Shown here: one piece after another, positions 10,297 through 56,642 of the stretch
Layout: each line of letters begins with the position of its first letter
Numbering within the stretch: position 1 is the stretch's first letter
Virus record (IMG/VR): IMGVR_UViG_3300010412_000005
Span: 12,546 to 76,545 of that record
DNA length: 64,000 bases
DNA from: a virus
Direction: 5' to 3' (one strand)
Made by a program: the position numbers and the translations under genes
Notes under the pieces: generated by a model
Databases searched by the model: none
The model's input: only the letters and a program-made list of their open reading frames with translations
What the model was told of the DNA's origin: nothing

Positions 10297-11512
10297 GCCA
10301 ATCTACGCAGGCGACGTCAATACACTCGCTCAGCTTGATCTGCAGCGATCTATTGCACAGTCAAAAGCAACTCAGGAAGGCATTGCTGGTGCCAGTCGTG
10401 GAGTTGGAAATCTCCTCAGCCAAAAGCAGCAGGAGCAGTATGGAAAGCTCAAGGGTCGAGAGCTTGACATCCAGGAAGGTCAGCAAGAGCGAGAAGACAA
10501 GGAGCGCATGGAGCGCTACACGTTCGAGTCTGCTCAGCGTGCTGCTCAAGAAGGTTTGCTGGATGCTGACCAGCTCGAAAACATTGCCCCAAGCTTCAAA
10601 GATCCAACCCGTCAGGCAATCATAAAGGAAGAAGCAAATAGGCTTCGTGGGCTTGAAGAGACGATGGATGAGGAAGGTCCTCAGATTGCCAACAGACTGA
10701 ACCAGTTCACTGGATACGAGCAAAGAACCCTGCAGAGAGCGCGTGAAGATTTGGCGAAAGCTGAGCAGGGATGGAAAGTCCCTGGAGTCGGCTGGGGTCC
10801 TGGGTCACAGGCTAACATTGAGGATGCTCAGAACCGCGTAGCGATGGCTGAGGCTGCAATCGCAGCCAAGGAAGCTCAGATCTACGAGGCGTATCCACAG
10901 TATGCAAACAGACTTCAGCTTGGCGAAGGTGGATACACCTATCTTCCTCGAAGCGGTAAAAGAAGGGGCATGGGATCTCAGGCTGATGTTCTTCCTCCAG
11001 CTGGTGGAGCTGCACAGGGTATAATGGTTGCCCCTCAAGAGCCTGTTGTTGGTGCGGATATCCTTCCAGAGGACCAGGGTTATGCTCCTCCTACTGGTCA
11101 ACCAAGCGCAATGGCTCCTGATGTTCTTCCTGCTGCTGAATTTCCAAGGTCTGCGCGAGGAACAACTATGCCTCGGTCAGCTCCTCCGACAGGACCAGTT
11201 GCTGGCAGGGGTTCACGCAGAGCAATAGGGCCAATCCTTGGAACGCCTACAGGGCGAAATCCTCGTGGTGCGTATCGCCCATCTGCAGTTCAACAAGTCC
11301 AGCCGACGACTGAGACAGCAACAACTCCTAGCCAGGAAACGCCTAGCCAAGGACTATTACCTGCTAACATCTCAGACCGGCTCGATCAGGAGACACTTAA
11401 CGAGTTCTACTCGCGAATGGCTCAATTCCAGAGACAAGGTATGTCTTTAGATGAGGCAAGACGCCGCGCCGGTCTGTGGCTAAAGCAACAGATTGACGCG
11501 GAGGTTTTCTAA
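10280..11512 (+). CDS. probable ejection/internal virion protein
   Basis: 410 aa Q/E/A-rich with Pro-rich linker; between two other ejection-type genes. Confidence 0.55.
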   Translation: MAIAGKPIYAGDVNTLAQLDLQRSIAQSKATQEGIAGASRGVGNLLSQKQQEQYGKLKGRELDIQEGQQEREDKERMERYTFESAQRAAQEGLLDADQLENIAPSFKDPTRQAIIKEEANRLRGLEETMDEEGPQIANRLNQFTGYEQRTLQRAREDLAKAEQGWKVPGVGWGPGSQANIEDAQNRVAMAEAAIAAKEAQIYEAYPQYANRLQLGEGGYTYLPRSGKRRGMGSQADVLPPAGGAAQGIMVAPQEPVVGADILPEDQGYAPPTGQPSAMAPDVLPAAEFPRSARGTTMPRSAPPTGPVAGRGSRRAIGPILGTPTGRNPRGAYRPSAVQQVQPTTETATTPSQETPSQGLLPANISDRLDQETLNEFYSRMAQFQRQGMSLDEARRRAGLWLKQQIDAEVF

Positions 11513-23500: not shown

Positions 23501-24996
23501 AGACAGTGTTCTCAGCTATGCACGCAGTAGAAAGCAGCCTTCGGCACAACTACCTGAGAGCTAAGGATCGTGGTGCTGATCCTCGCATCGTTGGAACAAT
23601 TCTTCCAACTGATGTGCTGCCGCGTTGGTTCAGGCTTCCGCGCAACAATCTGTCGGCGCTGTCTGATCTGAAGAACTGGTTCCAAGGTGCTGCCGTTGAT
23701 CTCAAGGGCGCAATCAATGACTTCTATGATCGCCTTGATGCTGCCGGTGATGATCCGAAAGCTCTTGGTGAGGTTCGGTTCCTTGATCATGAGCAGATCT
23801 GGAATCTTGCTCAGCAGCATCTTGAGGATGTTAACGTGGCAACGCCCGCCAACCGTCCAGCCATCGCAAAACGGAACACGATCAACCGTATTCTGTTCGC
23901 ACTCAAAGGATGGAGATGGAACATGTTCAGCAAGATCATGGACATGATGGGTGGTGCCATGATGAAGCATGAGAGCGTGGCGCTAAGAGCATGGGAGAAG
24001 TTTGGAAATATGTATTACATCCTATCCGCAGCAGCCATCGGTGGTCTCGCTGGGTATTGGTTGTTGGAGACGCTGACAAGGGCGATCTACCTTGCGCTAT
24101 TCGGAGAGATCCGAAGCGTCAGAAAGCTTGAGGATGTGTCTGCTAAGCCAACCGAAGTTGCTGTCGGAATGGCATCCATCGTTCCGTTCCTCGATACCGC
24201 TGTGAACCTCACGTTCAACACGCAGCCTTCCAAGGCAAGATTCAGTCCTGGAAGTCTGGTCGACAGCATGATGCTTCAGGTCATGAACTACGTTGCTGGT
24301 GCATACAACAGCAAGGATCTGACTTACGGTGTCGACCGCGCTGTCGTGACGTTACAGCCGACAATCGGCAAGCTTGTGATGAACAGGATGCCGGGTGCTA
24401 CCGGCAAGATCGAGAACTGGAATGCCAGCAGGCTCCTGATCAGGCATGGCGAAGATTCGTGGCTCAGGGAGTCAAGGTTCGGTGGTCAGATGTCTGGAAT
24501 GTTCGTGACTCCATACACGCCAATCGCTGACCGCATGGTGAACGCAGCCATGCAGAACGATATCGGAAGGGTCCAGGAAGAATACATGGACGGCGTGACT
24601 CAGATGGTGATGAACGAGAACATCCCATACGAGGAAGCCCAGCGTCGTATGCGTCAGATGTTCACCAGTCGCAATCCATACGACCGCGCATACAAGCGCA
24701 GGCTGACATCTATGGAAAGGGCTCAGGTCCTCAACAAGATGGACATGGACGACAGGGACAGAGTCCAAGCTGTTGAGCGCAAGTTTGAAGCAGCAGCCAA
24801 CGCCATCGGCGCGAACGTGAACTTCGAAAAGCAGGAGCGTCTGTTCAAGGCTGGAAAGACAGCAGTATCGCGGTTGCAGGCCATTCGAAAGCAGAGACGT
24901 GCAATGCTCATGAGCAACTCTGCAGCTCGCAGGGCGAGCATAAACATCATGGATCGCAGTCGTGGACTGTTGACTCGTGGACGAGTCTTACTATGA
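11512..24996 (+). CDS. giant (4494 aa) ejection / polyvalent-type virion protein
   Basis: Uninterrupted ORF; Gly/Ala hydrophobic segments near N-terminus, coiled coils, degenerate zincin-like EELAH...DEFFAH near aa 2644, hydrophobic C-terminal region. Confidence 0.75.
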   Translation: MPESYDPFSDLQDPNVAVSEPPLPPAPGRPAAPQEQQFDRKQFVVDVLEDIERSPEYQAYKRNRKEAALKEELRQQRQRTADFGESVLGNLLHLKSGDLQLAKIGAIFSGWANRKLGMPEAAAVADRKADEYRQEQKEIRSAIDGLNMGAVARTAGQFGESFIVSSPTLVVPGTAATAAARAGLGVAGASMVGLGAGAGVGGGISGISVYDDARDQYIAQGFSEEEASEMAKYPGWVSGIGTAAITALFGRTGVERSAFLKLPKDKVIGVLRQVFNQAGLEGLEEGADEIYQKITGYLTYHPDMPVEQAISEVGAAFGLGMAMGGGVEILGQIVNMSPPEIKALNEREFPRPQERPKTRKEAEGSPILPASTPKQGQTKPTVKSVQSNEEAARQLWGAMKPEERLKVIGPQGAAAPLPLEAINWEDLTEEEQLKVYDQFNLSVEPVGGRIPATAPAMPTAEDLAENERLTKAMRMSLIGSPEHEAAWAAKEQLKAKYGGHDLTKIGTEVPVAEAAAPAEPTAPGDQAWATRLSPSDSLAVRSAEPIDPTTITSVTKDTNDAGQTVYAIIYDNGKYIGYDDNPAWELHPLFGKKITPAAPAAPAEPGALANHADQVTVPQGIPASENTAYRSLETNPQITVEEFAGMDNEQRANHARSIGLNATGLSYAVGHNATVTENDILLLKTAYDQARARGQQLADESSKRTLTDAELNELSQLGQVENAMAEAIGAATDTGSAGFTLRKLPNYRPNFRGLINEPKRQSNQPEVKAAKNRAVTEVTAQTSDIPTTLATNLPDDQEQLAREQVFKGLKPAEFSPAQAKIYKGRDRANYDKRVLELRALAFIAPTLARGETLVFPDTATLGKIKKNHPGIYRLLQDEISRLTTPPRADTPSQEAAASTPTQDLPKNEDQSNPLSLKEMSKSAVEHFISTLNLLKQAAESKVRSAKHVKKQKSVLAKQGKTLKEFKKVQALHAEALQEVSRIEKRVAGLRSQLAEAAAVAPTAENARSILTTLVSRTQNKLRLARINSQRLQEQHDSLIAQAQAALDAVPVGPASPTTLAKIADLRARAETLGKKKMAQVKTVESLQAEIKEYQRQIEDIKRMPKDAPIDREAIRSQIKDLEARRQRVSEKIPGRAEAMDTLRKRLVDLELQYRKAFLEEVDERSGGKVSEFMQKREAAGAEYRGTSWAIANIRAALATYGYQFDVQPYVRKFVEREVTDPVTGQKAVIKEYTRRIGGTVGAVIAQRLRAGDVEVAEQFEANDFLTIRPVPNFFVREGEEINWPEAAKSFLTLIEKPTEAQKKSAEGVTSSDSFVAWFKENIVPAVMGIQERLSKAEAALTELQNSVSDFGLTKQSTWSYDAKSNEFKWGIDSFLAPDPNYVVWMSEINSRSPLGSDPSSTVVIPPGAGQSLPLEPDFEGEQVKIPHVHPGDRPQTKEGMFNPGKGDVTWQIAYYTQDDDGRMGDTIVVLQRSHHRVFHIVTIKDGVVVEDVRAPQDKTTGRTNYKTAVQAAQSKLKGKIQSAFWTAERGFQIPTVYSLSPLTDGTVPSNVSGQGSVLWTPAVELDSIEDALYRAAAAGELRPGMSKDAISKAVTKAVAGISPWHYSAYKKSFQAQRYWRSQAENIIRNATQDAIMATQIASSGRKPNTEVLARAFGIANPTFTPKKMPKLELAQAEYIRRALSVPRGTTDFQETVEVESTFEVKYPRTTQTRENGSRVVSIELDHPTAPAVLGTPYFRRTTPLVAKQEDSIIITKDGRAYGWFVFTEATTAAEKNNIFATIDGNPSATAYTETVTKRAPRMKMDPADRVEHAEDYLQSRVVQRLEQPTNNPTTQQLAAEAAATVDKLRETKTGRDILQNFLEDARDVRLGRSRFVNNMLRLFNTASFSEQYAVQVDDSTVERYVDVSIPNVMEKTRVLVEANTTNEEAYAAAVSQLVDQMSMAVSPQMLRIFGVSGATYSEMSYEPNLDGYVRLKKGMEAPENRVRIKELNDIADLGKNHPSYKLVKGRFTMGVGYERMAELLAEVGLNPSLLTKPKPGQNVQLEFVGDDGVTKIMHTIATPKTNERVLRRKTKAGKVVETKIPFESVVVGKMFDYYVERIQQIYKRIQDHQVARANMKALVARRLFAEAFRLPIIEGPFKGVLLQAKNQQRNPRHQMLGRAKAVIGAEQAAAGKKAEEEYLPEIDTSGFYEYRLVSNKIWTKAKFETDENVKFQASFIPLGTVLLQVESEGEFHNRQTVSTNAMEAEEVELERKKGETDEEYEERVEMAKLKSRFDVKAVEAFLAVEKQPKTGRHFARIVIRGGTKAKPEWETIYRVDLQKLQNSGLAKPFTKEETKSGKTDGWYINRHAVNNSAWWEVAKPDRRDYLSPEDFANYYPHKLGLLPGDVLAQARWVSMVSEGSDAERIINERVSGLSSTSVGTFNQKITEAAPDTFSATRFNMEDVEGGNLMDWLEENLSKSAKGIEILKRIHSIDPLAELTPEGRDPWQIVRDEILVINGIPIGKDATKTQEQLALADKIEKSLNRVHESRVSGGVQFRGGGRRTRISDVNPDVINKPAIGKAAIRELINTENNGLSPRAKRLANLMLDVLPDTILEDLTFVITPGYEIGNDATVEYTGSFSHAWRIARFVSTSGSVHTAAEELAHAAAMFLPAEHKGAVEEYRQIEIRQALENPTTPEIVKTFLKDMEANGGAFTSEDFMHRRGNQYLLPYYHLINTDEFFAHNMVAATDRKGRTNLQKAVDKAKSIISGFLKGIKKAMRMMNAQRDSYFDELIAKFEAGDFEVTANGGFLHEINKDVDMGAVAVAWTAGQVKRQAETIPVSTAGGPALAFTKAQRGTVIAAGNVEPYTILSALTAKREAQGRKLSAKAKQICLIDNFQEVIETVRNVFKVPIGQFKDTITNLPAVWLKEQTILAASSSVNFIRERMNKVKKARDTWMAKLTSPKFIQDMRKFAKLKIEVLGQEAIAARLEERIKSHLALLRARLADPNLDPNSPLAANAAREIDLYESYMTYSMGIAQKVEQMITALSLTEQGNELLQNPWGNLDPRAVTKAYKDTAPPPEQLQVGNAIIEAAAYFIATEPAIRQLMAAAVYQADPEVANLTDQLTMDMTNMMDELVKAPAGLRAVGKGDDLVNKFMRLIRATQKSTAAETKAKTVMRAQQIKLRKVINRAQMLDEAYEFYQELMADPDWIAYEGEIADLAGALHIPENWKHVGSDPVSGIVKMPLPMTAPKVTTSGTENAYHVVKLHDNLARWEAERVKVQESIDQMTQWLVNNGNDETLDAKYFKSMIKYGQMLLDSSLVNDIQGNHQGGFNFINAIFNKWTAMWEGIARSAPVRAIQNSRIAVRAWSDSMLLMNKWYQKWGDRIATLLHKATDSHSDIVDISDRNKSVYDWFNEVGRELFHLANEGYDPKAGDTLPDAQIEITQDDINCLKEMVTAADEAYEIDVTRGREVIPSRTVTDEFIPGMPYQRRAMKLVQYMLPRTFNKAAMDFTKKWLIEHAGYDADRNNYSFRDMAGATELLDQHWYLLKAFLSDRDLGFTDKKSPLEVGAYPALLEKIRNEEITNVEDFLAALDTFSITEENFDARQQFWKDFFHLQKGIYNKAVTDKSSETDSQRKGVYIPFEQENSFTRGRGQRIAPYAWYNHGFHSTAQTMSFMLNGSSHYLNWVSRSVEDSILVLKDMQDDYQKRIDALEGKREPSKETRKRRLIEETKANRQAMRLNEERIKLEDIDSTIKALRDFRTELQKVFASEGKLLEEETLQWNRFFGLYMGGAISSFRTGIQNMLQSAIGYSSWRLQRLRGGIFSVWPQHAFRLTWDLAQMAPYSAIRAIYDAAPFIGKVHYIKALKEMGMLFSVSNYQKYGLANIPRQVTLTLNELFSDMVQDLADGAWKRGRIYRELAERGLNNPFNTRYHLESVAESFTSLGRITYKETDKPVAAEGPVDWVWKQMWNVLKTTGKGMLGAVDIGMALTIRPFLPRAGDMMANQVAAETVFSAMHAVESSLRHNYLRAKDRGADPRIVGTILPTDVLPRWFRLPRNNLSALSDLKNWFQGAAVDLKGAINDFYDRLDAAGDDPKALGEVRFLDHEQIWNLAQQHLEDVNVATPANRPAIAKRNTINRILFALKGWRWNMFSKIMDMMGGAMMKHESVALRAWEKFGNMYYILSAAAIGGLAGYWLLETLTRAIYLALFGEIRSVRKLEDVSAKPTEVAVGMASIVPFLDTAVNLTFNTQPSKARFSPGSLVDSMMLQVMNYVAGAYNSKDLTYGVDRAVVTLQPTIGKLVMNRMPGATGKIENWNASRLLIRHGEDSWLRESRFGGQMSGMFVTPYTPIADRMVNAAMQNDIGRVQEEYMDGVTQMVMNENIPYEEAQRRMRQMFTSRNPYDRAYKRRLTSMERAQVLNKMDMDDRDRVQAVERKFEAAANAIGANVNFEKQERLFKAGKTAVSRLQAIRKQRRAMLMSNSAARRASINIMDRSRGLLTRGRVLL

Positions 24997-26156: not shown

Positions 26157-27673
26157 AGGACCATCTTTCTCATTTCATCTACGGCGTTTATTACTTGGTC
26201 GATTGTGACTGCACGCATACACTCACCGTTGCTCTTGGTGAATGTCGTTCCTCGTTCTCTATGCCTCGCTCCAATCTCGGGGAAAAGATCCTCATCAGCC
26301 TGAAGTGTCACGCACCATCCAGAGCTTAGGATGAACTCTGGATATGTGACTCCGAATATGGCAATGGATGGGAGCTTTTGAGACATGGCTAGATGAAGTG
26401 GAAAGCTGTCCAGACCTATGAACATGTCTGACTCTGCCATGATTGCCGCGCTTTGGTGAATGTCAGTGCGTCCTCTGTAGTCTAATGAAGCTGAGATTGG
26501 AAACGTGTTGTGACTTCCAAGGACAATCACCGCCCATCCGTTCTGCTTCAAGTAATTCGACACTGCAGCAAATCCACTCATGCTCCAGTTCTTTCCAGCC
26601 CATGTGGTTGGACCTGGGGCTATGACTGCTCTTGGCCTGTGAACCTGGGCCAGTTGTTGCTTAGCCCATTCAGTGCTCTCCTCATTTACAGGCATGTCCA
26701 GAGAATAGTCAGTCACCTTCACATCAGCCACTTCAGCGTAGCTGTCGATGATGTGCTTCATCGGCCTGTTCTCATACGCCATGTTCAGGTCAATGATCAG
26801 TGAGTCTGCACCTGGACGCAGGCTTTTCGTAGCTGTGTGAACCAGAGGATTGTTCGCAAACAGAGCTGGGAACTGCGTGATGATGTATATTGGAGACAGG
26901 GGCTTATCCTTCTTCAACTGCTTGATGATTGGAGTTGTCAGAAGAACGTCTCCAATAGCCGCATCGCGCTTGATGACGATTGGGTAGTTGAACTTGCGCA
27001 CCTTCAGATAATGCGCCCATACCCTACAGAGTGTCAGGTGGTTTTTCTCCTGAAAGAACCGAACGCGAGATACATGACGGGCAGTTGTGTTTGGCCAATG
27101 AAGAACCCTGATGCCAACTCTGTGTATGCTGTATCCTTTTTCCCTGCACCGCAAACTCAGATCAGAGTCCTCTCCGTAGGCAAACTCCAGGTAGTTGCTA
27201 AAAAGACCCAGCCTCTTGATAACTTCGGTCCTGCACATGAGGCAGGAGCCTTCAAGGTATTCGAATGCTCCTGGCTTTCCGTGAAAGTGCGGCGTGATCT
27301 CTGAGCAGTTTCCGAAAGGTCCACTAAGAGCAGCCTTTGGATCAGTCTTAAATGGTTGCTCAAGCTGTCCCAGCCAATGGGGTGGAACGGCGGTGTCGTT
27401 GTTGAGCAGGACGAAATAGGGAGTGTCGCATAGTGAGAACGCATACTTGTGTGGAATTTGGAATCCGTAGTTCTCAGGATTGTTGACTATCGTAACTGAA
27501 CCTGCTGGAAGCTTCTTCTGCACAGACTCGAATAGATTGAGAGTCCTATCTGTGCTTCCGTTGTTCGTTAGGATGAGATTGTAATCCCTGCTGTGCGCTA
27601 TGACTGACTCAAGGCACCGCTTGGTTACGTCCACCTTATTGAAGGCAACAATGCTGACAGTGTATCGCGCCAT
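26153..27673 (-). CDS. GT2 + GT9 (heptosyltransferase-like) fusion glycosyltransferase
   Basis: N-half NNGSTD, LLNNDT, YGEDSDLSLR (GT2); C-half AAIGDVLLTTP, KNWS, FIGLDSFPLHLA, IAIFG (GT9). Confidence 0.88.
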   Translation of the reverse strand: MARYTVSIVAFNKVDVTKRCLESVIAHSRDYNLILTNNGSTDRTLNLFESVQKKLPAGSVTIVNNPENYGFQIPHKYAFSLCDTPYFVLLNNDTAVPPHWLGQLEQPFKTDPKAALSGPFGNCSEITPHFHGKPGAFEYLEGSCLMCRTEVIKRLGLFSNYLEFAYGEDSDLSLRCREKGYSIHRVGIRVLHWPNTTARHVSRVRFFQEKNHLTLCRVWAHYLKVRKFNYPIVIKRDAAIGDVLLTTPIIKQLKKDKPLSPIYIITQFPALFANNPLVHTATKSLRPGADSLIIDLNMAYENRPMKHIIDSYAEVADVKVTDYSLDMPVNEESTEWAKQQLAQVHRPRAVIAPGPTTWAGKNWSMSGFAAVSNYLKQNGWAVIVLGSHNTFPISASLDYRGRTDIHQSAAIMAESDMFIGLDSFPLHLAMSQKLPSIAIFGVTYPEFILSSGWCVTLQADEDLFPEIGARHRERGTTFTKSNGECMRAVTIDQVINAVDEMRKMVL

Positions 27674-27674
27674 A

Positions 27675-28436
27675 TCACAGCGACCCTCGTTCTCTCAGCC
27701 ACTGATGTGCGAAAGTTGGGTGGTATCCTTTATAGGATTGAAGCTTGTCGCACCAGTCGCCAACTTCCCACCAGTCATGCCTGTTCTGTTGTTCAAATTC
27801 AATGAACCTTTTGTCTGCCTTGCCAAACCAGAGCATGTTGTTCTCCCTGTTCTTCCTGTAGAACGCCTGATAATCGCGGAGGAATCCGTAGTGAAAGATG
27901 CGAAGCTCAGGGTGCCTCTCTGCACGTTCTCTTATAGGAGGTTCGCCATCGTGATACGGTTCATCTGATGGCATGAACAGCTCTGACGGACCCATTCGAG
28001 CAACGTATCTGCCAACGCAATGGCCATCAGGTATCAGCGTCCACGCATCTCTTACGAAGTTGAGTCTCTCAAACCATGCGCATGCTTTGCGTTCTGCAAT
28101 ATCCAAGACTCGCTTGTGGCATTCCTCGCTGTCATCGAGAACCTCGTCTGCATCTAGCCACAGTTGCATTGGATGCTTCAGCAGCTTACGAGCTTCGTTG
28201 ATCGCATTCACAAACCAACGTGGCTCACCGACAGGATACGTCCAAGGGACCTGGACAACCTTGATCCTTGGCCATTCAATCGACAGTGCAGCCAGTCTGG
28301 ATTGAGTGTCGTCTGTGCTTTCAGCATGACAGATGACTATCTCATCGCATACAGGGACTAAAGACCGCACGCACTCTTCGATGCAGATATCGAAGGTGGT
28401 AGCGTTTCTGACGAATGTGTAGCCAGAGATCTTCAC
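27675..28436 (-). CDS. family 2 glycosyltransferase
   Basis: ISGYTFVRN, CDEIVI, STDDT, WLDADEVL, IFHYGF. Confidence 0.85.
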   Translation of the reverse strand: MKISGYTFVRNATTFDICIEECVRSLVPVCDEIVICHAESTDDTQSRLAALSIEWPRIKVVQVPWTYPVGEPRWFVNAINEARKLLKHPMQLWLDADEVLDDSEECHKRVLDIAERKACAWFERLNFVRDAWTLIPDGHCVGRYVARMGPSELFMPSDEPYHDGEPPIRERAERHPELRIFHYGFLRDYQAFYRKNRENNMLWFGKADKRFIEFEQQNRHDWWEVGDWCDKLQSYKGYHPTFAHQWLRERGSL

Positions 28437-29194
28437 AGTGCTCCGCGTTCTTTGAGCCAGTCGTGGGCAATAAGGGGATACCTGCCGTCATGGGTAAGGC
28501 ACCGATCCTTCCAAGGAACGTAGTGCCAGTATTCCTTACCCTCGTTGACAGCCTTTTCGATTGTTCTGTCCCATGTTCCGAAGAACATGTTCTGCACGTC
28601 CTTGACCTTCTCAACCATCACCGATTGCTTGCGCATGAATCCAAGATGGTAGATGACGAACGAAGGATGGTTTCTGCCCATACGGCGCATGTCGCATTCT
28701 CCGTTCGGTTGCGGTTCATCGGCTGGCATGAAGAGTTTCGTAGGCCCAAGTCTGGCAACTTTGTGACCGCATACAACGTCATGAGGAATGATTGTGCGGA
28801 CGTTTCTGATGAAGTTGACTCGGTAAAACCATCCACACCAACCATTCTCTGCCCATCTTCGCATGACTTCATAGGTCATCTTGTCGTCGTTGAGGACTTC
28901 GTCGGCATCCAGGTAGAACTGACAGTCATACTTCAGGTGCGCACGAACCCTGTTCATCCACTTGATGATACAGTAAGGATCGTTGACTGGGTTCGGCCAA
29001 GGTAGGTTGATGACTCGTAATTGAGGAACCTGAGATTTGAGACTTTCGAGAAAGTCACGCGTTCCATCATCAGAGTCGGAGTCGCAAGCCACGATCTCAT
29101 CGCATACAGGAGCCATTGATCGGATCGCCAGATCCACGCAATAGTCATGCTTGATGACGTTCCTTGCACATACATAGCCAGAGATGTTTTTCAT
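28433..29194 (-). CDS. family 2 glycosyltransferase (paralogue of neighbour)
   Basis: ISGYVCARN, CDEIVA, SDDGT, YLDADEVL, IYHLGF; start set at ATG 29194 (ATGA overlap). Confidence 0.85.
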   Translation of the reverse strand: MKNISGYVCARNVIKHDYCVDLAIRSMAPVCDEIVACDSDSDDGTRDFLESLKSQVPQLRVINLPWPNPVNDPYCIIKWMNRVRAHLKYDCQFYLDADEVLNDDKMTYEVMRRWAENGWCGWFYRVNFIRNVRTIIPHDVVCGHKVARLGPTKLFMPADEPQPNGECDMRRMGRNHPSFVIYHLGFMRKQSVMVEKVKDVQNMFFGTWDRTIEKAVNEGKEYWHYVPWKDRCLTHDGRYPLIAHDWLKERGAL

Positions 29195-29442
29195 TTGAGT
29201 CTCTTCATCCAATCTTCAGCTGCACCAGCTTTAATAAGGAACTCCTTCAGAACATTGATGACATCCTCGCGACGTGCATTGGACACGTAGTTCATCGTTC
29301 CTTGCTTGTCCTTGTCGTCGTTAAACCCGAAGGTGAACAACACAAATCCAAACCCATCAGGAATAGTTGCCTCGATCTGCTGAGCGGCATCTTGGAGGTA
29401 TTGCTTATATCCGTCTGGTAATGGCTGGGGATCACTTGTCAT
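29191..29442 (-). CDS. hypothetical phage protein
   Basis: 83 aa coupled to neighbours; GFVLFTF...NYVSNARRED. Confidence 0.7.
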   Translation of the reverse strand: MTSDPQPLPDGYKQYLQDAAQQIEATIPDGFGFVLFTFGFNDDKDKQGTMNYVSNARREDVINVLKEFLIKAGAAEDWMKRLK

Positions 29443-51815: not shown

Positions 51816-52559
51816 TTAATGAGTCGTGTCATTGGCAACCTCCCCAACAAACGCGTCGAGATAGTTGATGCAATCAGCCACGTTGCCTGCGTTCTGGCTC
51901 ATGCGATCACGCAGCAGCTGAAGCCTATCACGTAGTAGTGACCATCTGTCTTGCAAGTCTCCAACAGTTTTGTTCGCATCGTTTCTCAGGTCCTGCAGCT
52001 GTGACAACATGCCTTTGTTGCGCCGGTCCAACGCCTCGATCACGCCGACCTTCTCTTTGAGCGCATCGTTCGTGACATCGAGCCTACGTTTGATCTCATC
52101 TAGCGACTTGACTAGATTGTTGTTCTCGCTCTTAACCCCTGCACACTCTTGCGCGATTCTGCTATTCTCACTCACCAGCTCTCGAATGCGCTCGGCTTGC
52201 ATTTCGTTGACATCGTCAAACTTGACCTTGTCAAACTCCTTCAGGTCATGAAGCTCTTTCTGCGTGGCATCGAGAGCTTTCGCCAGCTTAACGCATTGGT
52301 CATTTGCATAACGCTTATCCTCATACAGCCTGCGGATATAATTCTCAAGGGCATCGACTTTCCATGAACATCCCTTAGCGAATCCAGGAACAGTGATGCG
52401 AATATCCCCACCTTCTGCCTTCATTGCCTCCAACTCAGCGCTCTTGCGCTCGTAACGCTCGTCTTGCTCATTCAATGTCTTGAGTAAGGCTGTGCCTAAC
52501 TCTGCGTTCGCTTTACATAGATCAACGAACGTCTGCACCGGCATCTCTGCTACTTTCAT
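51816..52559 (-). CDS. long coiled-coil protein
   Basis: AAGGA upstream of ATG 52559; extended heptads; directly downstream of the RAMP gene. Confidence 0.7.
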   Translation of the reverse strand: MKVAEMPVQTFVDLCKANAELGTALLKTLNEQDERYERKSAELEAMKAEGGDIRITVPGFAKGCSWKVDALENYIRRLYEDKRYANDQCVKLAKALDATQKELHDLKEFDKVKFDDVNEMQAERIRELVSENSRIAQECAGVKSENNNLVKSLDEIKRRLDVTNDALKEKVGVIEALDRRNKGMLSQLQDLRNDANKTVGDLQDRWSLLRDRLQLLRDRMSQNAGNVADCINYLDAFVGEVANDTTH

Positions 52560-52591
52560 AATGGTTCTTTCCTTGTGTTGTTGTGTGTGAA

Positions 52592-53194
52592 TCAAAGGAT
52601 CTCGTAGCTGAATCTCCCTGTTCCGCTGTTGCGCCACTGCCCAAACCCACGAAGAGCACCGTAGTCAAGCCACTCGATGAGACACTTCTCGTATGTGTCA
52701 TCAAGAAGAAGTGTTTCATACTCAATCCAGCTGCCTTCTGGAACAACTTCACTGTTCGCGAGCGCAACACGCTCTCCCTGCATAGTCGTTATACGCAATG
52801 GGCGCTGGCATGATCCTATCTTGCCTCCTTCAGGAAGATTGATTGGTATCCTGCGTGGGAACACGAAGATCAATCCATCAATGATCTTCTTGTATGCTCT
52901 AAGCTTTTTCGATTGTGTGTCAGGAAGCCTAGCCAGCATACCGCACGCATCTTTATACGACCCTTTGATCTGGTAGTCCCAATACATAGGACGTCCATCA
53001 TCCATGCGTGGAAACACTGACTGCAGTTTGCCTTCAACAATCTCAGGTCCAAGGGCAGCAATCTCCTCTTCAAGCGAGATTGCATTGGGTCCTTTGCTCG
53101 CAATGAATTCCTTGTGGATCTCTGGATTAGACGATGCCGTTCCGAGAACCTTCTCGTTAAACGTGACACGAACCTTGATTCTTTTCTTTGCCAT
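52592..53194 (-). CDS. stand-alone Cas7/Csm3-like RAMP-superfamily protein (200 aa)
   Basis: N-terminal strand IKVRVTFNEKVLG, YQIKGSYKDAC (KG motif), SEVVPEGSWIEY, C-terminal G-rich loop GFGQWRNSGTGRF; GGAGAG 7 nt before ATG 53194. Confidence 0.8.
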   Translation of the reverse strand: MAKKRIKVRVTFNEKVLGTASSNPEIHKEFIASKGPNAISLEEEIAALGPEIVEGKLQSVFPRMDDGRPMYWDYQIKGSYKDACGMLARLPDTQSKKLRAYKKIIDGLIFVFPRRIPINLPEGGKIGSCQRPLRITTMQGERVALANSEVVPEGSWIEYETLLLDDTYEKCLIEWLDYGALRGFGQWRNSGTGRFSYEIL

Positions 53195-53201
53195 ATCACT
53201 A

Positions 53202-53264
53202 CTCTCCGTTTCGGTCATGCTGTGACCATCATCAGCGCATCAGCATTAGATGCGGACGTGAGAA
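53202..53264 (-). ncRNA. type III hammerhead ribozyme
   Basis: UUCUCAC-GUC | CGCAUC-uaaugcu-GAUGCG | CUGAUGA-U | GGUCA-cagca-UGACC | GAAA-CGGAGAG: core, three stems and complementary loops (UGCU/AGCA). Predicted cut between 53255 and 53254. Confidence 0.88.
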
Positions 53265-53294
53265 GGCTGGGGCAACTATTGTCACCCCAGCCTT
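53263..53294 (-). promoter_or_regulatory. 10-bp hairpin between array and ribozyme
   Basis: AAGGCTGGGG...CCCCAGCCTT perfect inverted repeat, 12-nt loop region. Confidence 0.75.
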
Positions 53295-53296
53295 TG

Positions 53297-53800
53297 TGTG
53301 CCTCTGCATTGCCGCTCCACTCAGTTCCGCGCCGTTCCCTCACTCATCCGTCGCCAACACATCGGTGCCTTGCTCATCCGTAGCGAGTCGACACGATGCC
53401 TGTCCTTTCCCCTCACTCGCTATGCTGTTCGGCTCCATTCATTTCCTTGGCCCGTCCAATCTCTGCCTCACCATTCCATTTCCTTGCACGTCATTTCCTT
53501 TCCTTCGCTTCTCCTCGCCGTTCTGTTCCGTTCTATTCTCTGGCGTATCGTCTCCACTCCATGCTTCTCCACCGCTACTCATCGCTACACTACGCCGTTT
53601 CGGTTCCGCTTTGTGCTGAGCTTTTCTAGTGCTGCTCCATGCTAATCTCTTCGATTCGGTTCCACAGCGATTCCCCTCCTATCTTTTCCTTTCCACAGCA
53701 CTTCCGTTCGAAGGTTTGCCATTCCGCTGCCATGCAGCGCGTCACTGTTCCTCTTCTACGCCACGCTGTTAGCTACTCTGCGCATCTGCTCTATTGCTTT
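53297..53800 (-). repeat. non-coding degenerate pentamer array (NG[A/C]+NN), candidate guide/structural RNA
   Basis: About 90 units with G every 5 nt and one 6-nt unit per block; blocks of 26/31/36 nt mostly start GGA; no minus-strand ORF over 53297-53768. Confidence 0.85.
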
Positions 53801-54110
53801 TCACGTGCTCAACCATGCGTCGGTGCATGGCCTCAGCTTGTTCAACTCCACCGCTGCAGCGATCCATGTGTTGATCGAGGGGATCGTCCTTGTTGTCCGT
53901 AAAGATCATGGATTCCCACAGTATGGGCGGTCCATGACTTGAGTAGTTGTGATCGAGCCCAAGAAACACAGTGCTGATGCGATAAGCACCAACGTCTGTG
54001 ATCCATTGAAACTCCCTGCGTATCTCCGAACCAAAAAATGCGCACCACTCAGCAAGTGTCGCAATCTTTACCTTTCCGTTTCGATCCAGGACATATTTGT
54101 GCGGTGTCAT
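53769..54110 (-). CDS. conserved phage hypothetical protein
   Basis: ISTVFLGLDH...PILWESMIF...QAEAMH, a widespread phage motif. Confidence 0.75.
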   Translation of the reverse strand: MTPHKYVLDRNGKVKIATLAEWCAFFGSEIRREFQWITDVGAYRISTVFLGLDHNYSSHGPPILWESMIFTDNKDDPLDQHMDRCSGGVEQAEAMHRRMVEHVKSNRADAQSS

Positions 54111-54307
54111 CTACTTCCTCAATGATGATGTGCTTGCTCAGCCAGTAGTTCGCCCATCGAATTGAATACATGTGCGCCAGTATCATTACACCACAGAAAC
54201 TGGCCCAGTATATCAAGGCGTCTGGTGTTCCAATCAACACTTCACCTACCCAGTAAACGCAGCACACGCACACCATGATGTCCCAGAACTTATTCTTCCT
54301 CAACATT
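54049..54307 (-). CDS. small membrane protein
   Basis: Two hydrophobic segments; start inferred near MLRKNKFW. Confidence 0.45.
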
Positions 54308-54520
54308 GGGATCAGCTTGCGCCCATCCAGATGGTATAGCTGTTTCTTCACTTCCATCCTTAGCTTCATCCAGCGCTGCATCGGCTTGGAATAAGTGTTC
54401 CAGTTCTCTGCATACACACTGTCCAACAGCATGATCGCAGCCTCCCACGTCCTTCACGTAGTCAGCCACGTCATCACGCAGGTTTTGCAGTGCCATCACC
54501 AGCTTTTGTGCTGTGTTCAT
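54290..54520 (-). CDS. hypothetical protein
   Basis: GGAGG upstream; GGCDHAVGQCVC. Confidence 0.65.
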   Translation of the reverse strand: MNTAQKLVMALQNLRDDVADYVKDVGGCDHAVGQCVCRELEHLFQADAALDEAKDGSEETAIPSGWAQADPNVEEE

Positions 54521-54759
54521 CTGTCCTCCAGTCCGAACTCAACAGTGAACAGGCCAAGGTTGTATTCCCTGTCCAGTCTCTGCAGGTCCTCGGTGCTCAG
54601 CATGTCGCGCTTGTATGCCCACACGATTGCCTCCGTGTGATCCACAGGATACGCGCCACGCCTGCTCCAAAACGCTTCAACGCAGCGGCGTCTCAGCTGT
54701 TGTGGAGTCGGTTGCAGTGTTCTGCGCAAGTCAGCGCAGAGTTTGTCGATGTGTTCCAT
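54517..54759 (-). CDS. hypothetical protein
   Basis: AAGGAG upstream of ATG 54759 (MEHIDK); ATGA coupling. Confidence 0.6.
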   Translation of the reverse strand: MEHIDKLCADLRRTLQPTPQQLRRRCVEAFWSRRGAYPVDHTEAIVWAYKRDMLSTEDLQRLDREYNLGLFTVEFGLEDR

Positions 54760-54780
54760 CTCTCTTCTCCTTCGTTCAGC

Positions 54781-56020
54781 GTGAAATCGACACAAAAAAG
54801 CGGCAGAACTCAACATCGTGCACACGCACGCATGAGCCTGCCGCTCTGATTTCACCAGGAACTGAACCTAGCACCCTCATTTTGACAGTGGACTCCCACG
54901 TTGTCTACTTTGAGCGTGCACCAAATCGTTGGCGAGATGTCTGCCTCATGTAGTCTTTCTCTACATGTGTTCAGCCAGACATTGCATCCCCTCGCCATGC
55001 TCTTTGCACATGAACCCGATGCACGGATTCACCAGCCCGTCGACCAAGTCGCTGTCTTCCGTCATACTCAGCGCATGCTGACATTCAGCCATGACTCCAT
55101 CTACATGAGTTGAGCAACCGCCCAACAAGACGCAGACTGCTTTTCTGACTCCAGCTTCTGTCAGGACACCGTTTCGCGTATGCCCCAGGTCCGCTGTTTT
55201 TCTGCAGCCAAGTGCCTTCCCACCACGCACCTTGCCCCAATGACCACAGGATGGTCGCTGTCGCCTACCACAGCACGTTTACAATCTCCATCACGTTTAG
55301 CTACCCAGAGAATCTTACTGGCAGATAGTCGCTGCGTGTCACGTTCGCTCGTATATGCACGCTCCTTGTGCTTCCCTCTCGACGCCCTTCATCGCTCTTA
55401 CCCGTGTCACATCCATTTCCTCGCATTGTCCCTGTGCTCGTGCCCTTTGCGCCTAACGATGCTCGATCCCAGTTGCTAACTGATTGCTGATTCTTAGTCG
55501 CCTCACGGCAACCTCACAGACCTGCTCCAATCCCAGTTGTTGAGGGTCGTTGATCAGGTCTAAGCATCTACGCTGATCCTCTCGGACTTCGGACTACACC
55601 CCAGCCAATGTCTTGTCAGGGTGGATGTGCACGCTGATTTGCAATCCCCGCCATCTCCCTTCTGAGCATGTGCCCAGACGCCATGCATTCCCACAAACCA
55701 CAGCACTACCGATCCTCCAGGTTTTCCTTCGCGTAGCCTTGCAGCCCATGAACAATGGATTCTGCGGCTTCCGCTATCATCGGCAACCCCAACGCATGCA
55801 AACACCAAGACACCTTGACTAGAGACTAAGCACACGCTCAGACCGTCATCAGCACACGTTACCGTCTACCCTCAATGAACTTTCAGCGAATCACGGCAAA
55901 TCACCCGCTATCGCATCGCCAAACCCGATTCCACGCAGAGAAACCAGGAGCAAACCACTGCGCACGCACAAACGCACGCAGTCGTTTGACCCCGCTTGAA
56001 CAAGCAAGAGACGCTAAGAA
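54781..56020 (-). ncRNA. possible large structured non-coding RNA / leader region
   Basis: No convincing ORF; several hairpins, including GNRA-capped ones, on the minus strand. Confidence 0.4.
54794..54845 (-). terminator. long hairpin with U-tract
   Basis: AGCGGCAG...CTGCCGCT-TTTTT, nested in outer GTGAAATC/GATTTCAC inverted repeat (54781-54855). Confidence 0.65.
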
Positions 56021-56025
56021 ACGCA

Positions 56026-56060
56026 GCTAGGCCGCCAGATTTTACTCTGGCAGCCGTAGC
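56026..56060 (-). terminator. hairpin after 56073-56642 gene
   Basis: GCTAcGGCTGCCAGA-gtaaaa-TCTGGCGGCCTAGC; weak U-tract. Confidence 0.55.
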
Positions 56061-56072
56061 GCGTGTTGAGTC

Positions 56073-56642
56073 TTACAGCTTCACACCCTGCGCAGCCGCC
56101 CAAGCCTTGATCGCTTCACCAGCCTTACGGTGACGCTCCAGCTTGTCTTGAGCCTGCATCTTCACGTCGATTTCCTTGCCATACCGCAGACCACCCTCAA
56201 TCCGCACCATGTCGCCAGTCTTGCGGTCGCGGACGACTCGCTCAGGCTGGAATCGCAGAACGTGCGCGTTAACACCGTCGATCTTGAGAACAGTCTCCCT
56301 CGCCGTCACGGCTCGGTAGTCGCGGTCGAATGCCTTGGTCAATTCCTTGGCTCGCTCGCGCTGTTCCTTGGTAGGTTTCCAATCCTCCGCTCGCTCCGCA
56401 CCCTTGTTGCCGTAGGCGCAGTCGTAAACAAGGGACAGATTCCCCAACAAGTCGCGCAGCTGGATGACTTCACCAAACTTGCGCTCGCCATCCTTCGGCT
56501 TGCTGCTGCGTCTCGCCTTCCCAAGATACGGCAGCAGACTCTGCCACTTGCTTTGCACCGCTGGCAGCGTCGAGACCGTAGTCTCAAGCGTGAACACGAC
56601 GTTGCTTGACTCTTGCTTGTTGCTCTTTTTGGACTTTGCCAT
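56073..56642 (-). CDS. hypothetical basic protein
   Basis: AAGGA upstream of ATG 56642 (MAKSKK); 189 aa. Confidence 0.7.
   Translation of the reverse strand: MAKSKKSNKQESSNVVFTLETTVSTLPAVQSKWQSLLPYLGKARRSSKPKDGERKFGEVIQLRDLLGNLSLVYDCAYGNKGAERAEDWKPTKEQRERAKELTKAFDRDYRAVTARETVLKIDGVNAHVLRFQPERVVRDRKTGDMVRIEGGLRYGKEIDVKMQAQDKLERHRKAGEAIKAWAAAQGVKL

What the first reader, a model, noticed from the sequence alone, without database searches (positions are those of the whole stretch)
53297..53800. Two-level repeat code: degenerate pentamers grouped into 26/31/36-nt blocks
Seen (minus strand from 53751): GGA ac AGT ga CGC gc TGC at GGC agc / GGA at GGC aa ACC tt CGA ac GGA ag TGC tgt / GGA aa GGA aa AGA ta GGA gg GGA at CGC tgt / GGA ac CGA at CGA ag AGA tt AGC at GGA gc AGC act /... 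Hand-parsed block lengths: 26,31,31,36,31,26,31,36,26,31,31,36,30,11, then a final block from 53338. The G register is held while other bases vary, and no two blocks are identical, unlike a slippage microsatellite; a period of 5 does not fit coding. The pattern extends into the last ~10 codons of the upstream gene. Inference: each 5n+1 block is one guide or filament unit, the 6-nt unit (usually NGC-NNN before GGA) marking a boundary. The first triplet base also varies, so the code could be NN or NNN per unit.
Basis: partly seen in the sequence, partly recalled or inferred. Interest (0 to 1): 0.85.

Follow-up and report, generated by a model that had tools for sequence, protein, structure and literature searches.

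The report
Phage VIPR guide-RNA array with RAMP gene
The odd five-base repeat is real and is the guide-RNA array of a VIPR system, a phage-encoded, CRISPR-like RNA-guided DNA-silencing system first described in 2026 preprints, here in an unusual form where one extra base is added about every six repeats.

Summary
The minus strand of 53800-53298 carries a purine-rich pentamer array, R-G-M-N-N, with G at 94% of units. A +1 slip falls every 5-7 units, giving blocks of 26/31/36 nt. It is the only such place in the 64 kb.

It is not a new kind of thing. The adjacent gene (52592-53194/53218, minus) folds as a Cas7-like RAMP. It aligns weakly but end to end with the experimentally studied Vipr protein of phage phiSUSP1. 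About 80 viral contigs that encode homologues all carry a similar array next to the gene, on the same strand. This matches VIPR systems (bioRxiv 10.64898/2026.04.26.720920 and two follow-ups).

This clade differs from the studied type II systems in four ways:
- The first scaffold G is degenerate, and both protein residues that read it in SUSP1 are replaced.
- Three positions per unit vary, not two.
- The array is continuous, with no tail after each guide.
- A conserved boundary (NGC-NNN-G | GAA) recurs about once per six units, which equals the published six-protomer helical turn of the Vipr filament.

No targets were found, so whether each block is its own guide remains open. Another first-stage note had already flagged this stretch.

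The parts
53380..53751 (-). Regular core of the vrRNA-type array. It holds 72 units in 12 blocks of 26/31/36 nt. Each block starts G-G-A-A-N and ends N-G-C-N-N-N.
   Evidence: Parse. Block logos: first unit G 9/12, G 12/12, A 11/12, A 9/12; last unit C 10/12 at position 3. Autocorrelation.
53298..53379 (-). Less regular 3' part of the array (blocks 24+6, 11, 36, 5 nt).
53752..53800 (-). Degenerate 5' lead-in of the array (units in runs of 16, 17 and 16 nt). It overlaps the last ~10 codons and the stop (53771-53769) of the 113-aa ORF.
53263..53294 (-). Strong 14-bp hairpin directly after the array. It is a candidate 3' tail or cap of the array RNA. It has no T-run, so it is not a canonical intrinsic terminator.
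   Evidence: Fold of 53195-53310: -45.7 kcal/mol, z -3.8, 0 of 200 shuffles fold as well. The terminator scan finds nothing here.
53202..53263 (-). Candidate hammerhead ribozyme with open stem III. It has the GUC triplet at 53257-53255 (cut after 53255), a stem I hairpin, CUGAUGA at 53235-53229 plus one extra U, a stem II hairpin, and GAAA at 53212-53209. The 3' strand of stem III contains the GGAGAG ribosome-binding site of the RAMP gene. Not confirmed.
   Evidence: Read directly from the sequence. The centroid fold recovers the three helices. Rfam covariance models give no hammerhead hit even at E<=10 on 151 nt. No counterpart in relatives. Hammerhead-associated VIPR arrays are reported in 10.64898/2026.04.26.720920 (fig. 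S19 legend).
52592..53218 (-). vipr-like gene, a single-domain Cas7-like RAMP. The longest ORF is 208 aa from ATG 53218. The likely true start is ATG 53194 (200 aa, MAKKRIKV...), which is where homologues begin and which lies 8 nt after GGAGAG.
   Evidence: AlphaFold2 pLDDT 84. Foldseek gives 167 PDB hits at E<=1e-3, led by Cas7/Csm3/Cmr4 chains. hhalign to phiSUSP1 Vipr gives E 3e-4. The alignment shows where homologues start. The identical 200-aa database protein is P0001.
51816..52637 (-). Downstream coiled-coil ORF (273 aa from GTG, more likely 247 aa from ATG 52559). It is the only candidate for an accessory (vap) gene by position, and nothing else supports that role.
   Evidence: Only weak SMC/coiled-coil matches. 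The Atlas gives nothing specific. It is not conserved next to vipr in relatives.

Best explanation
This is a VIPR (Viral Interference Programmable Repeat) locus of an environmental 76.5-kb phage with direct terminal repeats.

Proposed mechanism, with each step marked:
- Transcription (inferred from the shared strand and a weak RNA-library hint): the minus-strand array is transcribed together with, and just upstream of, the RAMP gene.
- Release (inferred): a strong hairpin and a hammerhead-like motif between array and gene would free the array RNA from the mRNA.
- Filament assembly (shown for SUSP1 in 10.64898/2026.04.26.720927; inferred here from fold and conserved residues): RAMP protomers polymerise on the RNA, one per pentamer. 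Each grips the invariant G by stacking on the conserved Trp of the G-loop (W195 here).
- Target reading (inferred): the 2-3 variable bases of each unit are left exposed to read a double-stranded DNA target in a gapped fashion. This silences genes of competing mobile elements.

Two features are particular to this clade:
- The first scaffold G is no longer fixed, so up to three bases per unit may carry information.
- An extra, conserved G with a fixed context (NGC-NNN-G | GAA) is inserted every 5-7 units, most often 6. This equals the published number of protomers per helical turn (six without target, five with target).

My preferred reading of the blocks is that each is a one-turn module of the filament, corresponding to the 'staggered array' architecture that the discovery paper mentions. 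I hold this reading weakly.
For: Protein:
- The adjacent protein folds as a Cas7-family RAMP (pLDDT 84). Foldseek top hits are type VII Cas7 at E 7e-8, then Csm3 and Cmr4. There are 167 hits at E<=1e-3 and the listed top hits are CRISPR RAMP chains.
- It aligns end to end with the validated phiSUSP1 Vipr (hhalign E 3e-4, probability 35-41%) and shares the C-terminal G-loop G-x-G-x-W-R...G-R-F.
- Residue mapping onto the published contacts: W178 and R179, which contact G2 and Y3, are kept as W195 (204/211 sequences) and R196 (199/211). H17 and D177, which read G1, are replaced by T27 (178/211) and Q194 (191/211). This matches the loss of the first G in the repeats (G 44%, A 31%).

Comparative:
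- All 80 viral loci found through the protein have a lag-5 periodic, purine-rich array touching the gene on its sense strand. It is usually downstream and sometimes upstream.
- No other neighbouring gene is shared, so gene plus array is the conserved unit.
- In relatives the mean unit length is 5.1-5.2 nt and the commonest block is 31 nt (283 cases), then 26 (137) and 36 (87).
- Among orthologous runs, minimum substitutions per site at G-anchored positions 1-5 are 0.03, 0.11, 0.29, 0.24 and 0.27. The extra base of the 6-mers is nearly invariant at 0.03.
- Relatives have a hypervariable 5' tract with 5n or 5n+1 indels and a conserved ~140-nt 3' tail.

RNA and context:
- The array has no secondary structure beyond chance (z -0.44), as expected for a protein-coated guide.
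- The genome has no CRISPR-like repeats, one vipr copy and one array.
- Contigs of a marine-sediment metatranscriptome library cover 53498-53656 and 52966-53437. The second bridges array, hairpin and gene start. This is a weak hint only, because DNA carry-over is not excluded.

Literature:
- System, code, types, alternative repeats (NNNGG, YNNNG, NNNNG), staggered and hammerhead arrays.
- Six-protomer turn of the filament.
- Non-canonical pentamers in 21 further clusters.
Against: - Sequence similarity to a validated Vipr is weak (probability about 40%).
- The canonical GGY/NN consensus is not met, nor is the published layout of 9-16 repeats plus a structured tail per guide.
- No accessory (vap) gene could be recognised.
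- The hammerhead is not recognised by any Rfam model and is absent from relatives.
- The only RNA evidence is low-depth contigs from one library, which also span the proposed cleavage site.
Confidence: 0.88

Rival explanations
1. Same system, different reading of the blocks. The array yields a few long guides, or one long guide, each spanning several blocks. The extra G is only a once-per-turn spacer that keeps a long filament in register. It is not a guide boundary or a processing site.
For: - Single blocks carry only 10-14 (NN) or 15-21 (NNN) informative bases, fewer than the 18-32 of characterised 9-16-repeat guides.
- Block lengths in this window add up three times to 124 nt (26+31+31+36, 31+26+31+36, 26+31+31+36). 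That is close to the ~100-nt size of known vrRNAs, and lag 124 has the highest autocorrelation at 0.466.
- Relatives contain uninterrupted runs of up to 15-18 units.
- An RNA-library contig of 159 nt spans about five blocks.
Against: - The boundary has its own conserved sequence on both sides, which suggests recognition rather than a mere spacer.
- Indels between related arrays come as 5n or 5n+1 cassettes.
- The 124-nt superblocks are no more alike than any in-register comparison (47-52% identity).
- The discovery paper describes staggered arrays as giving individual vrRNAs.
Confidence: 0.35
2. A decoy or sponge RNA. The array has no DNA targets of its own and instead soaks up Vipr protein. 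This could be the phage's own Vipr or that of a competing element. It could alternatively redirect Vipr to harmless sites.
For: [quoted passage not shown]
- The variable positions here are A/G-biased.
Against: - The array is always linked to its own vipr gene, in about 80 loci.
- The variable positions evolve 2.5-10 times faster than the scaffold positions. This is expected for guides in an arms race, not for a sponge.
Confidence: 0.05
3. A DNA-level element such as a centromere, an origin or a packaging site. A protein would bind every half helical turn, with the +1 slips keeping the repeats in phase with the double helix (372 nt / 72 units x 2 = 10.33 bp).
For: The mean unit length of 5.17 nt in the window and 5.1-5.2 nt in relatives is almost exactly half of a 10.3-10.5-bp helical repeat.
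Against: - The array keeps the same strand relative to the RAMP gene whether it lies upstream or downstream, which points to a transcript.
- The partner protein has an RNA-binding RAMP fold.
- The same period is explained by the published one-protomer-per-pentamer filament with six protomers per turn.
Confidence: 0.03
4. A chance or slippage-generated low-complexity tract with no function.
For: None beyond its repetitive look.
Against: - No two blocks are identical.
- The register is held over 500 nt (z 8.2).
- Slip spacing is regular (p about 5e-9).
- The architecture is conserved in about 80 diverged loci.
- Tandem Repeats Finder sees almost nothing, so this is not a simple microsatellite.
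Confidence: 0.01

Closest known systems
Type II VIPR of Escherichia phage phiSUSP1 (Vipr + vap1 + four vrRNAs; bioRxiv 10.64898/2026.04.26.720920, 10.64898/2026.04.26.720927, 10.64898/2026.10.15.759431)
   Same: - Phage-encoded ~200-aa single-domain RAMP with the G-x-G-x-W-R...G-R-F loop.
- Flanking non-coding tandem pentamers on the gene's strand, with fixed scaffold bases and variable bases.
- No CRISPR array and no other cas genes.
- I read the SUSP1 locus directly: L082, gene 28474-29061, arrays at about 27600-28000 and 29150-29250.
   Different: - SUSP1 has discrete guides of about 10-15 GGT-NN units with no slips, each followed by its own structured tail. Here about 90 units run on continuously, with a +1 boundary every 5-7 units and a single hairpin at the end.
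- The scaffold here is R-G-M rather than G-G-Y.
- The G1-reading residues H17 and D177 are T and Q here.
- No recognisable vap gene here.
- Protein similarity is only at profile level (E 3e-4).
'Staggered' and hammerhead-interspersed VIPR arrays, and alternative repeats NNNGG/YNNNG/NNNNG (figs S17-S19 and methods of 10.64898/2026.04.26.720920); non-canonical pentamers in 21 clusters (10.64898/2026.10.21.760802)
   Same: - A continuous array whose successive segments are offset by one nucleotide.
- Repeats with only one invariant G.
- A hammerhead-like motif next to the array.
   Different: - I could read only the figure legends, so identity with the published 'staggered' class is an inference. 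The legend speaks of a 1-nt overlap, while here the blocks are 5n+1.
- The discovery paper says only the latter two architectures (hammerhead-interspersed arrays and single-vrRNA systems) were confirmed by small-RNA sequencing.
- The match between block size and helical turn is not stated in the texts I read.
Cas7 backbone filaments of class 1 CRISPR-Cas effectors (type III Csm3/Cmr4, type VII Cas7)
   Same: - Same fold (Foldseek E down to 7e-8, TM about 0.52-0.57).
- Same logic: one protomer per fixed RNA increment, with a thumb interrupting base pairing.
   Different: - A 5-nt increment instead of 6 nt.
- No CRISPR repeats or spacers, no Cas5/Cas6/Cas10/Cas11, and no adaptation genes in the genome.
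- No Pfam or NCBIfam Cas family matches.
- Guide information is interleaved with scaffold bases instead of sitting in one spacer.
TRAP-type ring proteins on (G/U)AG-NN repeats and CsrB/RsmZ GGA sponges (recalled from general knowledge, considered early on)
   Same: Triplets spaced by two variable bases (TRAP), and many GGA motifs in a non-coding RNA (CsrB).
   Different: - The partner here is a RAMP, not a TRAP or CsrA fold.
- The motifs are not in hairpin loops, because the array is unstructured.
- The array is far longer than 11 repeats.
- Rejected.

Membership tests
VIPR system | Small (~20 kDa) stand-alone RAMP with RRM core, glycine-rich loop and thumb | tested here: met
   A 200/208-aa protein. 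The AlphaFold2 model has pLDDT 84 and pTM 0.77. There are 167 PDB matches at E<=1e-3, led by Cas7/Csm3/Cmr4 chains. The C-terminal G-loop G-F-G-Q-W-R-N-S-G-x-G-R-F is invariant in the family.
VIPR system | Homology to an experimentally validated Vipr protein | tested here: inconclusive
   hhalign of the family profile against phiSUSP1 Vipr, and against a 5-member SUSP1-clade profile, gives E 3-4e-4 and probability 35-41%. The alignment is collinear over 100-168 columns. The functional residues W178/R179 and K82/K88 are conserved. tblastn does not connect the two clades.
VIPR system | Tandem pentanucleotide repeats beside the gene, with fixed scaffold positions alternating with hypervariable positions | tested here: met
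   The window array is shown. All 80 homologous loci have such an array. Substitution rates by position are 0.03, 0.11, 0.29, 0.24 and 0.27.
VIPR system | Canonical GGY/NN (YNNGG) repeat consensus | tested here: not met
   The unit here is R-G-M-N-N: first base G 44% / A 31%, third base A 54% / C 38%. In relatives it is G-C-A-N-N with three variable positions. This falls under the 'related consensus' classes (YNNNG, NNNNG) that the paper itself admits.
VIPR system | Each guide has 9-16 repeats followed by an invariant structured 3' tail | tested here: not met
   Blocks have 5-7 units and abut one another with no tail. One 14-bp hairpin follows the whole array. Relatives have one conserved ~140-nt tail after the whole variable tract. 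This resembles the paper's 'staggered arrays' rather than type II.
VIPR system | Viral genome, with no CRISPR array and no other cas genes | tested here: met
   The record is a 76,545-bp virus with 144-bp direct terminal repeats. It has no CRISPR-like repeat, one vipr copy and one periodic array. No NCBIfam families match the RAMP or the 113-aa ORF, and only weak coiled-coil matches are found for the 273-aa ORF.
VIPR system | Accessory vap gene with a DNA-interacting domain | tested here: inconclusive
   The only candidate by position is a coiled-coil ORF at 51816-52637. No domain was found and it is not conserved in relatives.
VIPR system | Array is transcribed and the RNA is bound by the protein | not testable with these tools
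   The only data are low-depth contigs of one metatranscriptome library that cover parts of the array and bridge it to the gene. DNA carry-over cannot be excluded.
VIPR system | Variable bases match natural DNA targets under a gapped (xNN) rule | tested here: inconclusive
   No match was found in any of these searches:
- exact-pattern scans of IMG/VR
- one scan of JGI metagenomes
- 50 sibling phage genomes at <=3 mismatches
- a local all-against-all search with reversed controls on 22 sibling genomes plus this genome
The large collections could not be searched with mismatches allowed, so absence of hits means little.
CRISPR-Cas class 1 effector (Cas7) | Cas7 encoded with a CRISPR array and partner cas genes; 6-nt increment | tested here: not met
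   No CRISPR repeats and no cas genes. The increment is 5 nt.
Hammerhead ribozyme | Match to Rfam hammerhead covariance models; conserved core and three helices | tested here: inconclusive
   The core nucleotides GUC, CUGAUGA (+1 U) and GAAA and three helices can be read from the sequence. The centroid fold recovers the helices. No Rfam hit appears at E<=10 on 151 nt, and no covariation data exist.

The most novel reading that the evidence does not exclude
In this large and so far uncharacterised Vipr clade (about 2000 clusters at 50% identity), the guide array is written in helical turns. A conserved extra G with the context NGC-NNN-G|GAA recurs once per ~6 protomers, which is the published turn of the filament. 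It either delimits one-turn mini-guides or re-phases a very long filament. In addition, loss of the two G1-reading residues (H17T, D177Q) has freed a third base per unit, so that the code reads whole codon-like triplets. TAA and TAG are depleted to 0.43-0.44 of expectation among the variable triplets of relatives.
Probability: 0.3. Interest if true: 0.6.

Novelty: new member of a known kind. Interest (0 to 1): 0.35.

Why it matters
VIPR systems were described only in 2026. They are proposed as the ancestor of CRISPR effectors and as a very small programmable DNA-binding tool.

This locus adds nothing categorically new, but it documents in detail a clade that the published experiments did not cover:
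- The arrays are continuous and offset by one base.
- The boundary motif recurs at the filament's helical repeat.
- The scaffold has a single invariant G, and matching substitutions in the protein explain this.
- There is evidence for three informative bases per unit.

If the block boundaries prove to be processing sites, these would be the shortest known guides of this kind. If they are turn markers, they show how a long filament stays in register. Either result bears on engineering such guides.

The module also travels as gene plus array between unrelated phage backbones: a 76-kb phage found in sediment and soil metagenomes here, and ~40-kb viral contigs elsewhere (the four GenBank relatives come from human faeces).

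Tried and rejected
1. Early leads rejected once the fold was known and the array proved unstructured: TRAP-like ring binding, a CsrA sponge, G-quadruplexes, and DNA curvature or centromere.

2. Rfam: no family matches 52500-56500 at E<=1. No hammerhead at E<=10 on 53170-53320, only chance miRNA-type hits on the hairpin.

3. Pfam, PHROGs and NCBIfam give nothing for the RAMP. DNA search of the phage collection gives nothing. The upstream 113-aa protein has no relatives by the pattern search.

4. Target hunting, all negative.
   - An 11-unit conserved guide of relatives, written as NNx, found nothing in IMG/VR or in 50 sibling genomes at <=3 mismatches.
   - Two 7-unit blocks of this window, read as contiguous triplets, found nothing in IMG/VR.
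   - Two adjacent blocks read as NNx through the boundary found nothing in IMG/VR or JGI metagenomes.
   - A local search of 600 ten-unit windows under ten reading rules, against 22 sibling genomes plus this genome, showed no excess over reversed controls.
   - An earlier search on the 8-kb loci also showed no excess (the script stopped on a 4-nt unit).

5. The stop-codon depletion seen in relatives is not seen in this window's own array (3 observed, 2.2 expected).

6. The 124-nt superblocks are not recent duplicates (47-52% identity).

The blocks were then rebuilt from the reference.

8. Parts of the RNA library without cover (52625-52965 and 53657-54600) are not evidence of anything.

9. Cluster look-up of NCBI-derived homologues returned no names or accessions.
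Full report
**1.

I read the minus strand of 53800-53298 and parsed it with an unsupervised EM/Viterbi segmentation into units of 4-7 nt. Three irregular runs precede these and overlap the end of the upstream 113-aa ORF.

The unit is R-G-M-N-N. G is 94% at the second position and the third position is A or C. Information content per position is 0.20, 1.79, 0.79, 0.31 and 0.07 bits.

- Lag-5 identity is 0.453 against 0.294 +/- 0.019 in shuffles (z 8.2).
- Lags 26, 31, 36 and 124 are equally strong.
- Lag 3 is at background.
- Simple Fourier power at period 5 is flat, because the +1 slips cancel it.
- In the whole 64 kb this is the only place where sliding lag-5 identity exceeds the mean by 4 sd. 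In the whole 76.5-kb genome it is the only array.
- The slips are regularly spaced. Twelve in a row at 5-7 units has p about 5e-9 under random placement.
- Blocks have polarity. The first unit is G-G-A-A-N (G 9/12, G 12/12, A 11/12, A 9/12). The last unit, a 6-mer, is N-G-C-N-N-N (C 10/12).

**2. The neighbouring gene is a Cas7-like RAMP**

The ORF directly downstream on the same strand (52592-53218) has no Pfam, PHROG or NCBIfam match. It belongs to a large unnamed family: 2152 proteins in one database and 1986 clusters at 50% identity in another.

An AlphaFold2 model built on a 25-sequence alignment has pLDDT 84. Foldseek against the PDB returns 167 matches at E<=1e-3. The listed top hits are RAMP chains of CRISPR effectors: type VII Cas7 (E 7e-8), Csm3, Cmr4 and Csm4. 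A profile search of PDB sequences also picks Csm4 and type VII Cas7 weakly at the C-terminal glycine-rich loop.

Homologues begin at the second Met. The likely start is therefore ATG 53194, giving 200 aa.

**3. Gene plus array is a conserved, mobile pair**

A scan of viral contigs with the protein gave 80 loci at 54-62% identity. Every one has a lag-5 periodic, purine-rich array touching the gene on its sense strand. The array is downstream in most loci and upstream in a few: L070, L072, L073, L074 and L078. None of the other genes around the window's copy recurs there.

In these relatives the unit is G-C-A-N-N. The mean unit length is 5.1-5.2 nt. The commonest block is again 31 nt (283 cases), followed by 26 (137) and 36 (87).

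Among clusters of orthologous runs I counted the minimum number of changes per site:
- invariant G: 0.03
- next base: 0.11
- remaining three positions: 0.29, 0.24 and 0.27
- extra base of the 6-mers: 0.03, and it is a G

So there is one fixed G, one semi-fixed base and three hypervariable bases per unit. The phase slip is a conserved inserted G, not a scar. An alignment of 13 related arrays shows a hypervariable 5' tract with cassette-like indels (15, 21 and 26 nt) and a conserved 3' tail of about 140 nt.

**4. This is a known system**

[quoted passage not shown] It describes VIPR systems as follows:
- They are phage-encoded, with a ~20-kDa ancestral RAMP (Vipr).
- Their vrRNAs are made of 9-16 YNNGG pentamers, with a fixed GGY and a hypervariable NN, plus a structured 3' tail.
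- They read double-stranded DNA with a one-base skip and silence competing phages and satellites.
- There are seven types.
- Alternative repeats (NNNGG, YNNNG, NNNNG), 'staggered arrays' offset by one nucleotide and hammerhead-interspersed arrays are all mentioned.

Follow-up preprints give cryo-EM structures (10.64898/2026.04.26.720927), the biology in E. coli (10.64898/2026.10.15.759431) and 21 further clusters with non-canonical pentamers (10.64898/2026.10.21.760802).

**5. Direct comparison with the validated system**

I fetched phiSUSP1 (KT454805) and read its locus. The 195-aa gene at 28474-29061 is flanked by arrays of about 10-15 GGT-NN units. Each array is followed by its own tail, and none has a slip.

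Profile comparison of my family with this protein, and with a five-member profile of its clade (Gordonia, Mycobacterium and Listonella phages), gives E 3-4e-4 and probability 35-41%. The alignment is collinear and anchored on the shared G-loop. This is weak, but the papers themselves found the family by structure, not by sequence.

I mapped the published contact residues through the alignment:
- The Trp that stacks on G2 and the following Arg are conserved here (W195 in 204/211 sequences, R196 in 199/211).
- The two lysines that clamp the non-target strand also align to lysines (K105, K111).
- The two residues that read G1, H17 and D177, are Thr (178/211) and Gln (191/211) in this family.

This fits the repeats. 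The second G is invariant here and the first is not. The link is my inference.

**6. What the blocks may be**

The structural preprint reports one protomer per repeat and a right-handed helix. The helix has six subunits per turn without target and five with target. The boundaries here recur every 5-7 units, most often 6, both in this phage and in relatives. I therefore propose that a block corresponds to one turn of the filament.

The data cannot tell whether the boundary is a processing site, giving one-turn guides (the paper's 'staggered' class), or a spacer inside longer guides.
- For separate guides: the boundary has its own conserved sequence, and indels come as cassettes.
- For longer guides: a single block carries little information, three successive sets of four blocks each sum to 124 nt, and relatives have uninterrupted runs of 15-18 units.

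**7. Between array and gene**

The array itself folds no better than shuffles (z -0.44). Immediately after it lies a 14-bp hairpin at 53294-53263 (z -3.8 for the 116-nt segment).

After the hairpin comes a motif with every hammerhead core element in order:
- the GUC triplet at 53257-53255
- a 6-bp stem I hairpin
- CUGAUGA plus one extra U
- a 5-bp stem II hairpin
- GAAA
- a stem III whose 3' strand is the GGAGAG ribosome-binding site of the RAMP gene

The centroid fold recovers the three helices. Rfam's models do not score it and relatives lack it, so I list it as a candidate only. Another first-stage note had proposed it.

No sigma-70-like promoter and no intrinsic terminator is predicted in 52500-54300 that bears on the array.

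**8. Expression and habitat**

Near-identical DNA occurs in runs from seven studies, labelled marine sediment, sediment, mangrove, soil and unspecified metagenomes, plus one coded organism label. One marine-sediment metatranscriptome library has low-depth contigs on 53498-53656 (mid-array) and on 52966-53437, which bridges array end, hairpin, hammerhead candidate and gene start. A third contig lies on the downstream ORF. This is compatible with co-transcription. It is not proof, because DNA may be present in such libraries.

**9. Targets**

I could not find any. Exact-pattern scans of IMG/VR and of JGI metagenomes with guides written as NNx or as contiguous triplets gave nothing. Nor did 50 sibling genomes at <=3 mismatches. 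Nor did a local search of 600 ten-unit windows under ten reading rules against 22 complete sibling genomes and this genome, with reversed controls. The large collections cannot be searched with mismatches, so this is inconclusive.

There is one indirect hint about the code. Among 2084 de-duplicated units of relatives, the triplets formed by the three variable positions show TAA and TAG at 0.43-0.44 of expectation and TGA at 0.70, while TAT is at 1.30. This would fit triplets copied from, or aimed at, sense codons. The window's own array is too small to show it (3 observed against 2.2 expected).

**10. Verdict**

The repeat is real, functional by conservation, and a member of the VIPR family published in 2026. 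It is a new member of a known kind. It belongs to a clade with a degenerate scaffold and a continuous array phased by helical turns, which the published experiments did not cover.

Confidence in the family assignment is about 0.88. Confidence that each block is its own guide is about 0.4.

Noticed in passing
window 11512-24996 (+): A single 4494-aa ORF with no PHROG match. Most large ORFs of this 76.5-kb phage (144-bp direct terminal repeats) have no family match either, so the phage backbone is itself poorly known.
   Followed up: partly
window 53778-53901: In a soil-metagenome run the assembly breaks at the 5' edge of the array (contig ends at 53807 and 53778). A second 124-nt contig carries 9 substitutions and 2 indels in the end of the 113-aa ORF. 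This indicates strain-level variation right at the array boundary.
   Followed up: no
L074:3150-3230 and 2880-2900: A relative carries short tracts with a 10-11-nt period (GGGCA-A/G-N-CC-R-A type). They lie between two pentamer arrays, interleaved with small ORFs. This is a different repeat grammar next to the same gene family.
   Followed up: no
L014:3252-3468 and L064:3112-3331 (minus strand of the loci): FuFi-1 RNA (Rfam RF02986; 100.6 and 72.9 bits, above the gathering score) lies about 0.6 kb upstream of the vipr-like gene in two of the related viral contigs.
   Followed up: no
L086:2099-2430 (Listonella phage phiHSIC): A member of the SUSP1 Vipr clade (31% identity) has N-G-C-A-A pentamers, the same non-canonical unit as the related viral contigs. 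They are arranged as discrete runs of about 10 units with tails and without slips. Unit sequence and array architecture therefore vary independently.
   Followed up: partly
window 53380-53751: Block lengths sum to 124 nt three times in a row, and lag 124 has the highest autocorrelation (0.466). The three 124-nt segments are only 47-52% identical, so this is a register effect and not a recent duplication.
   Followed up: yes
window 52592-53218: The longest-ORF start (ATG 53218) lies inside stem II of the hammerhead candidate. Homologues and the database copy (200 aa) start at ATG 53194, so the annotated N-terminus is probably 8 residues too long.
   Followed up: yes
window 54781-56060: Another first-stage note flags this stretch as ORF-poor and hairpin-rich. 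My Rfam scan of 52500-56500 found no family there.
   Followed up: partly
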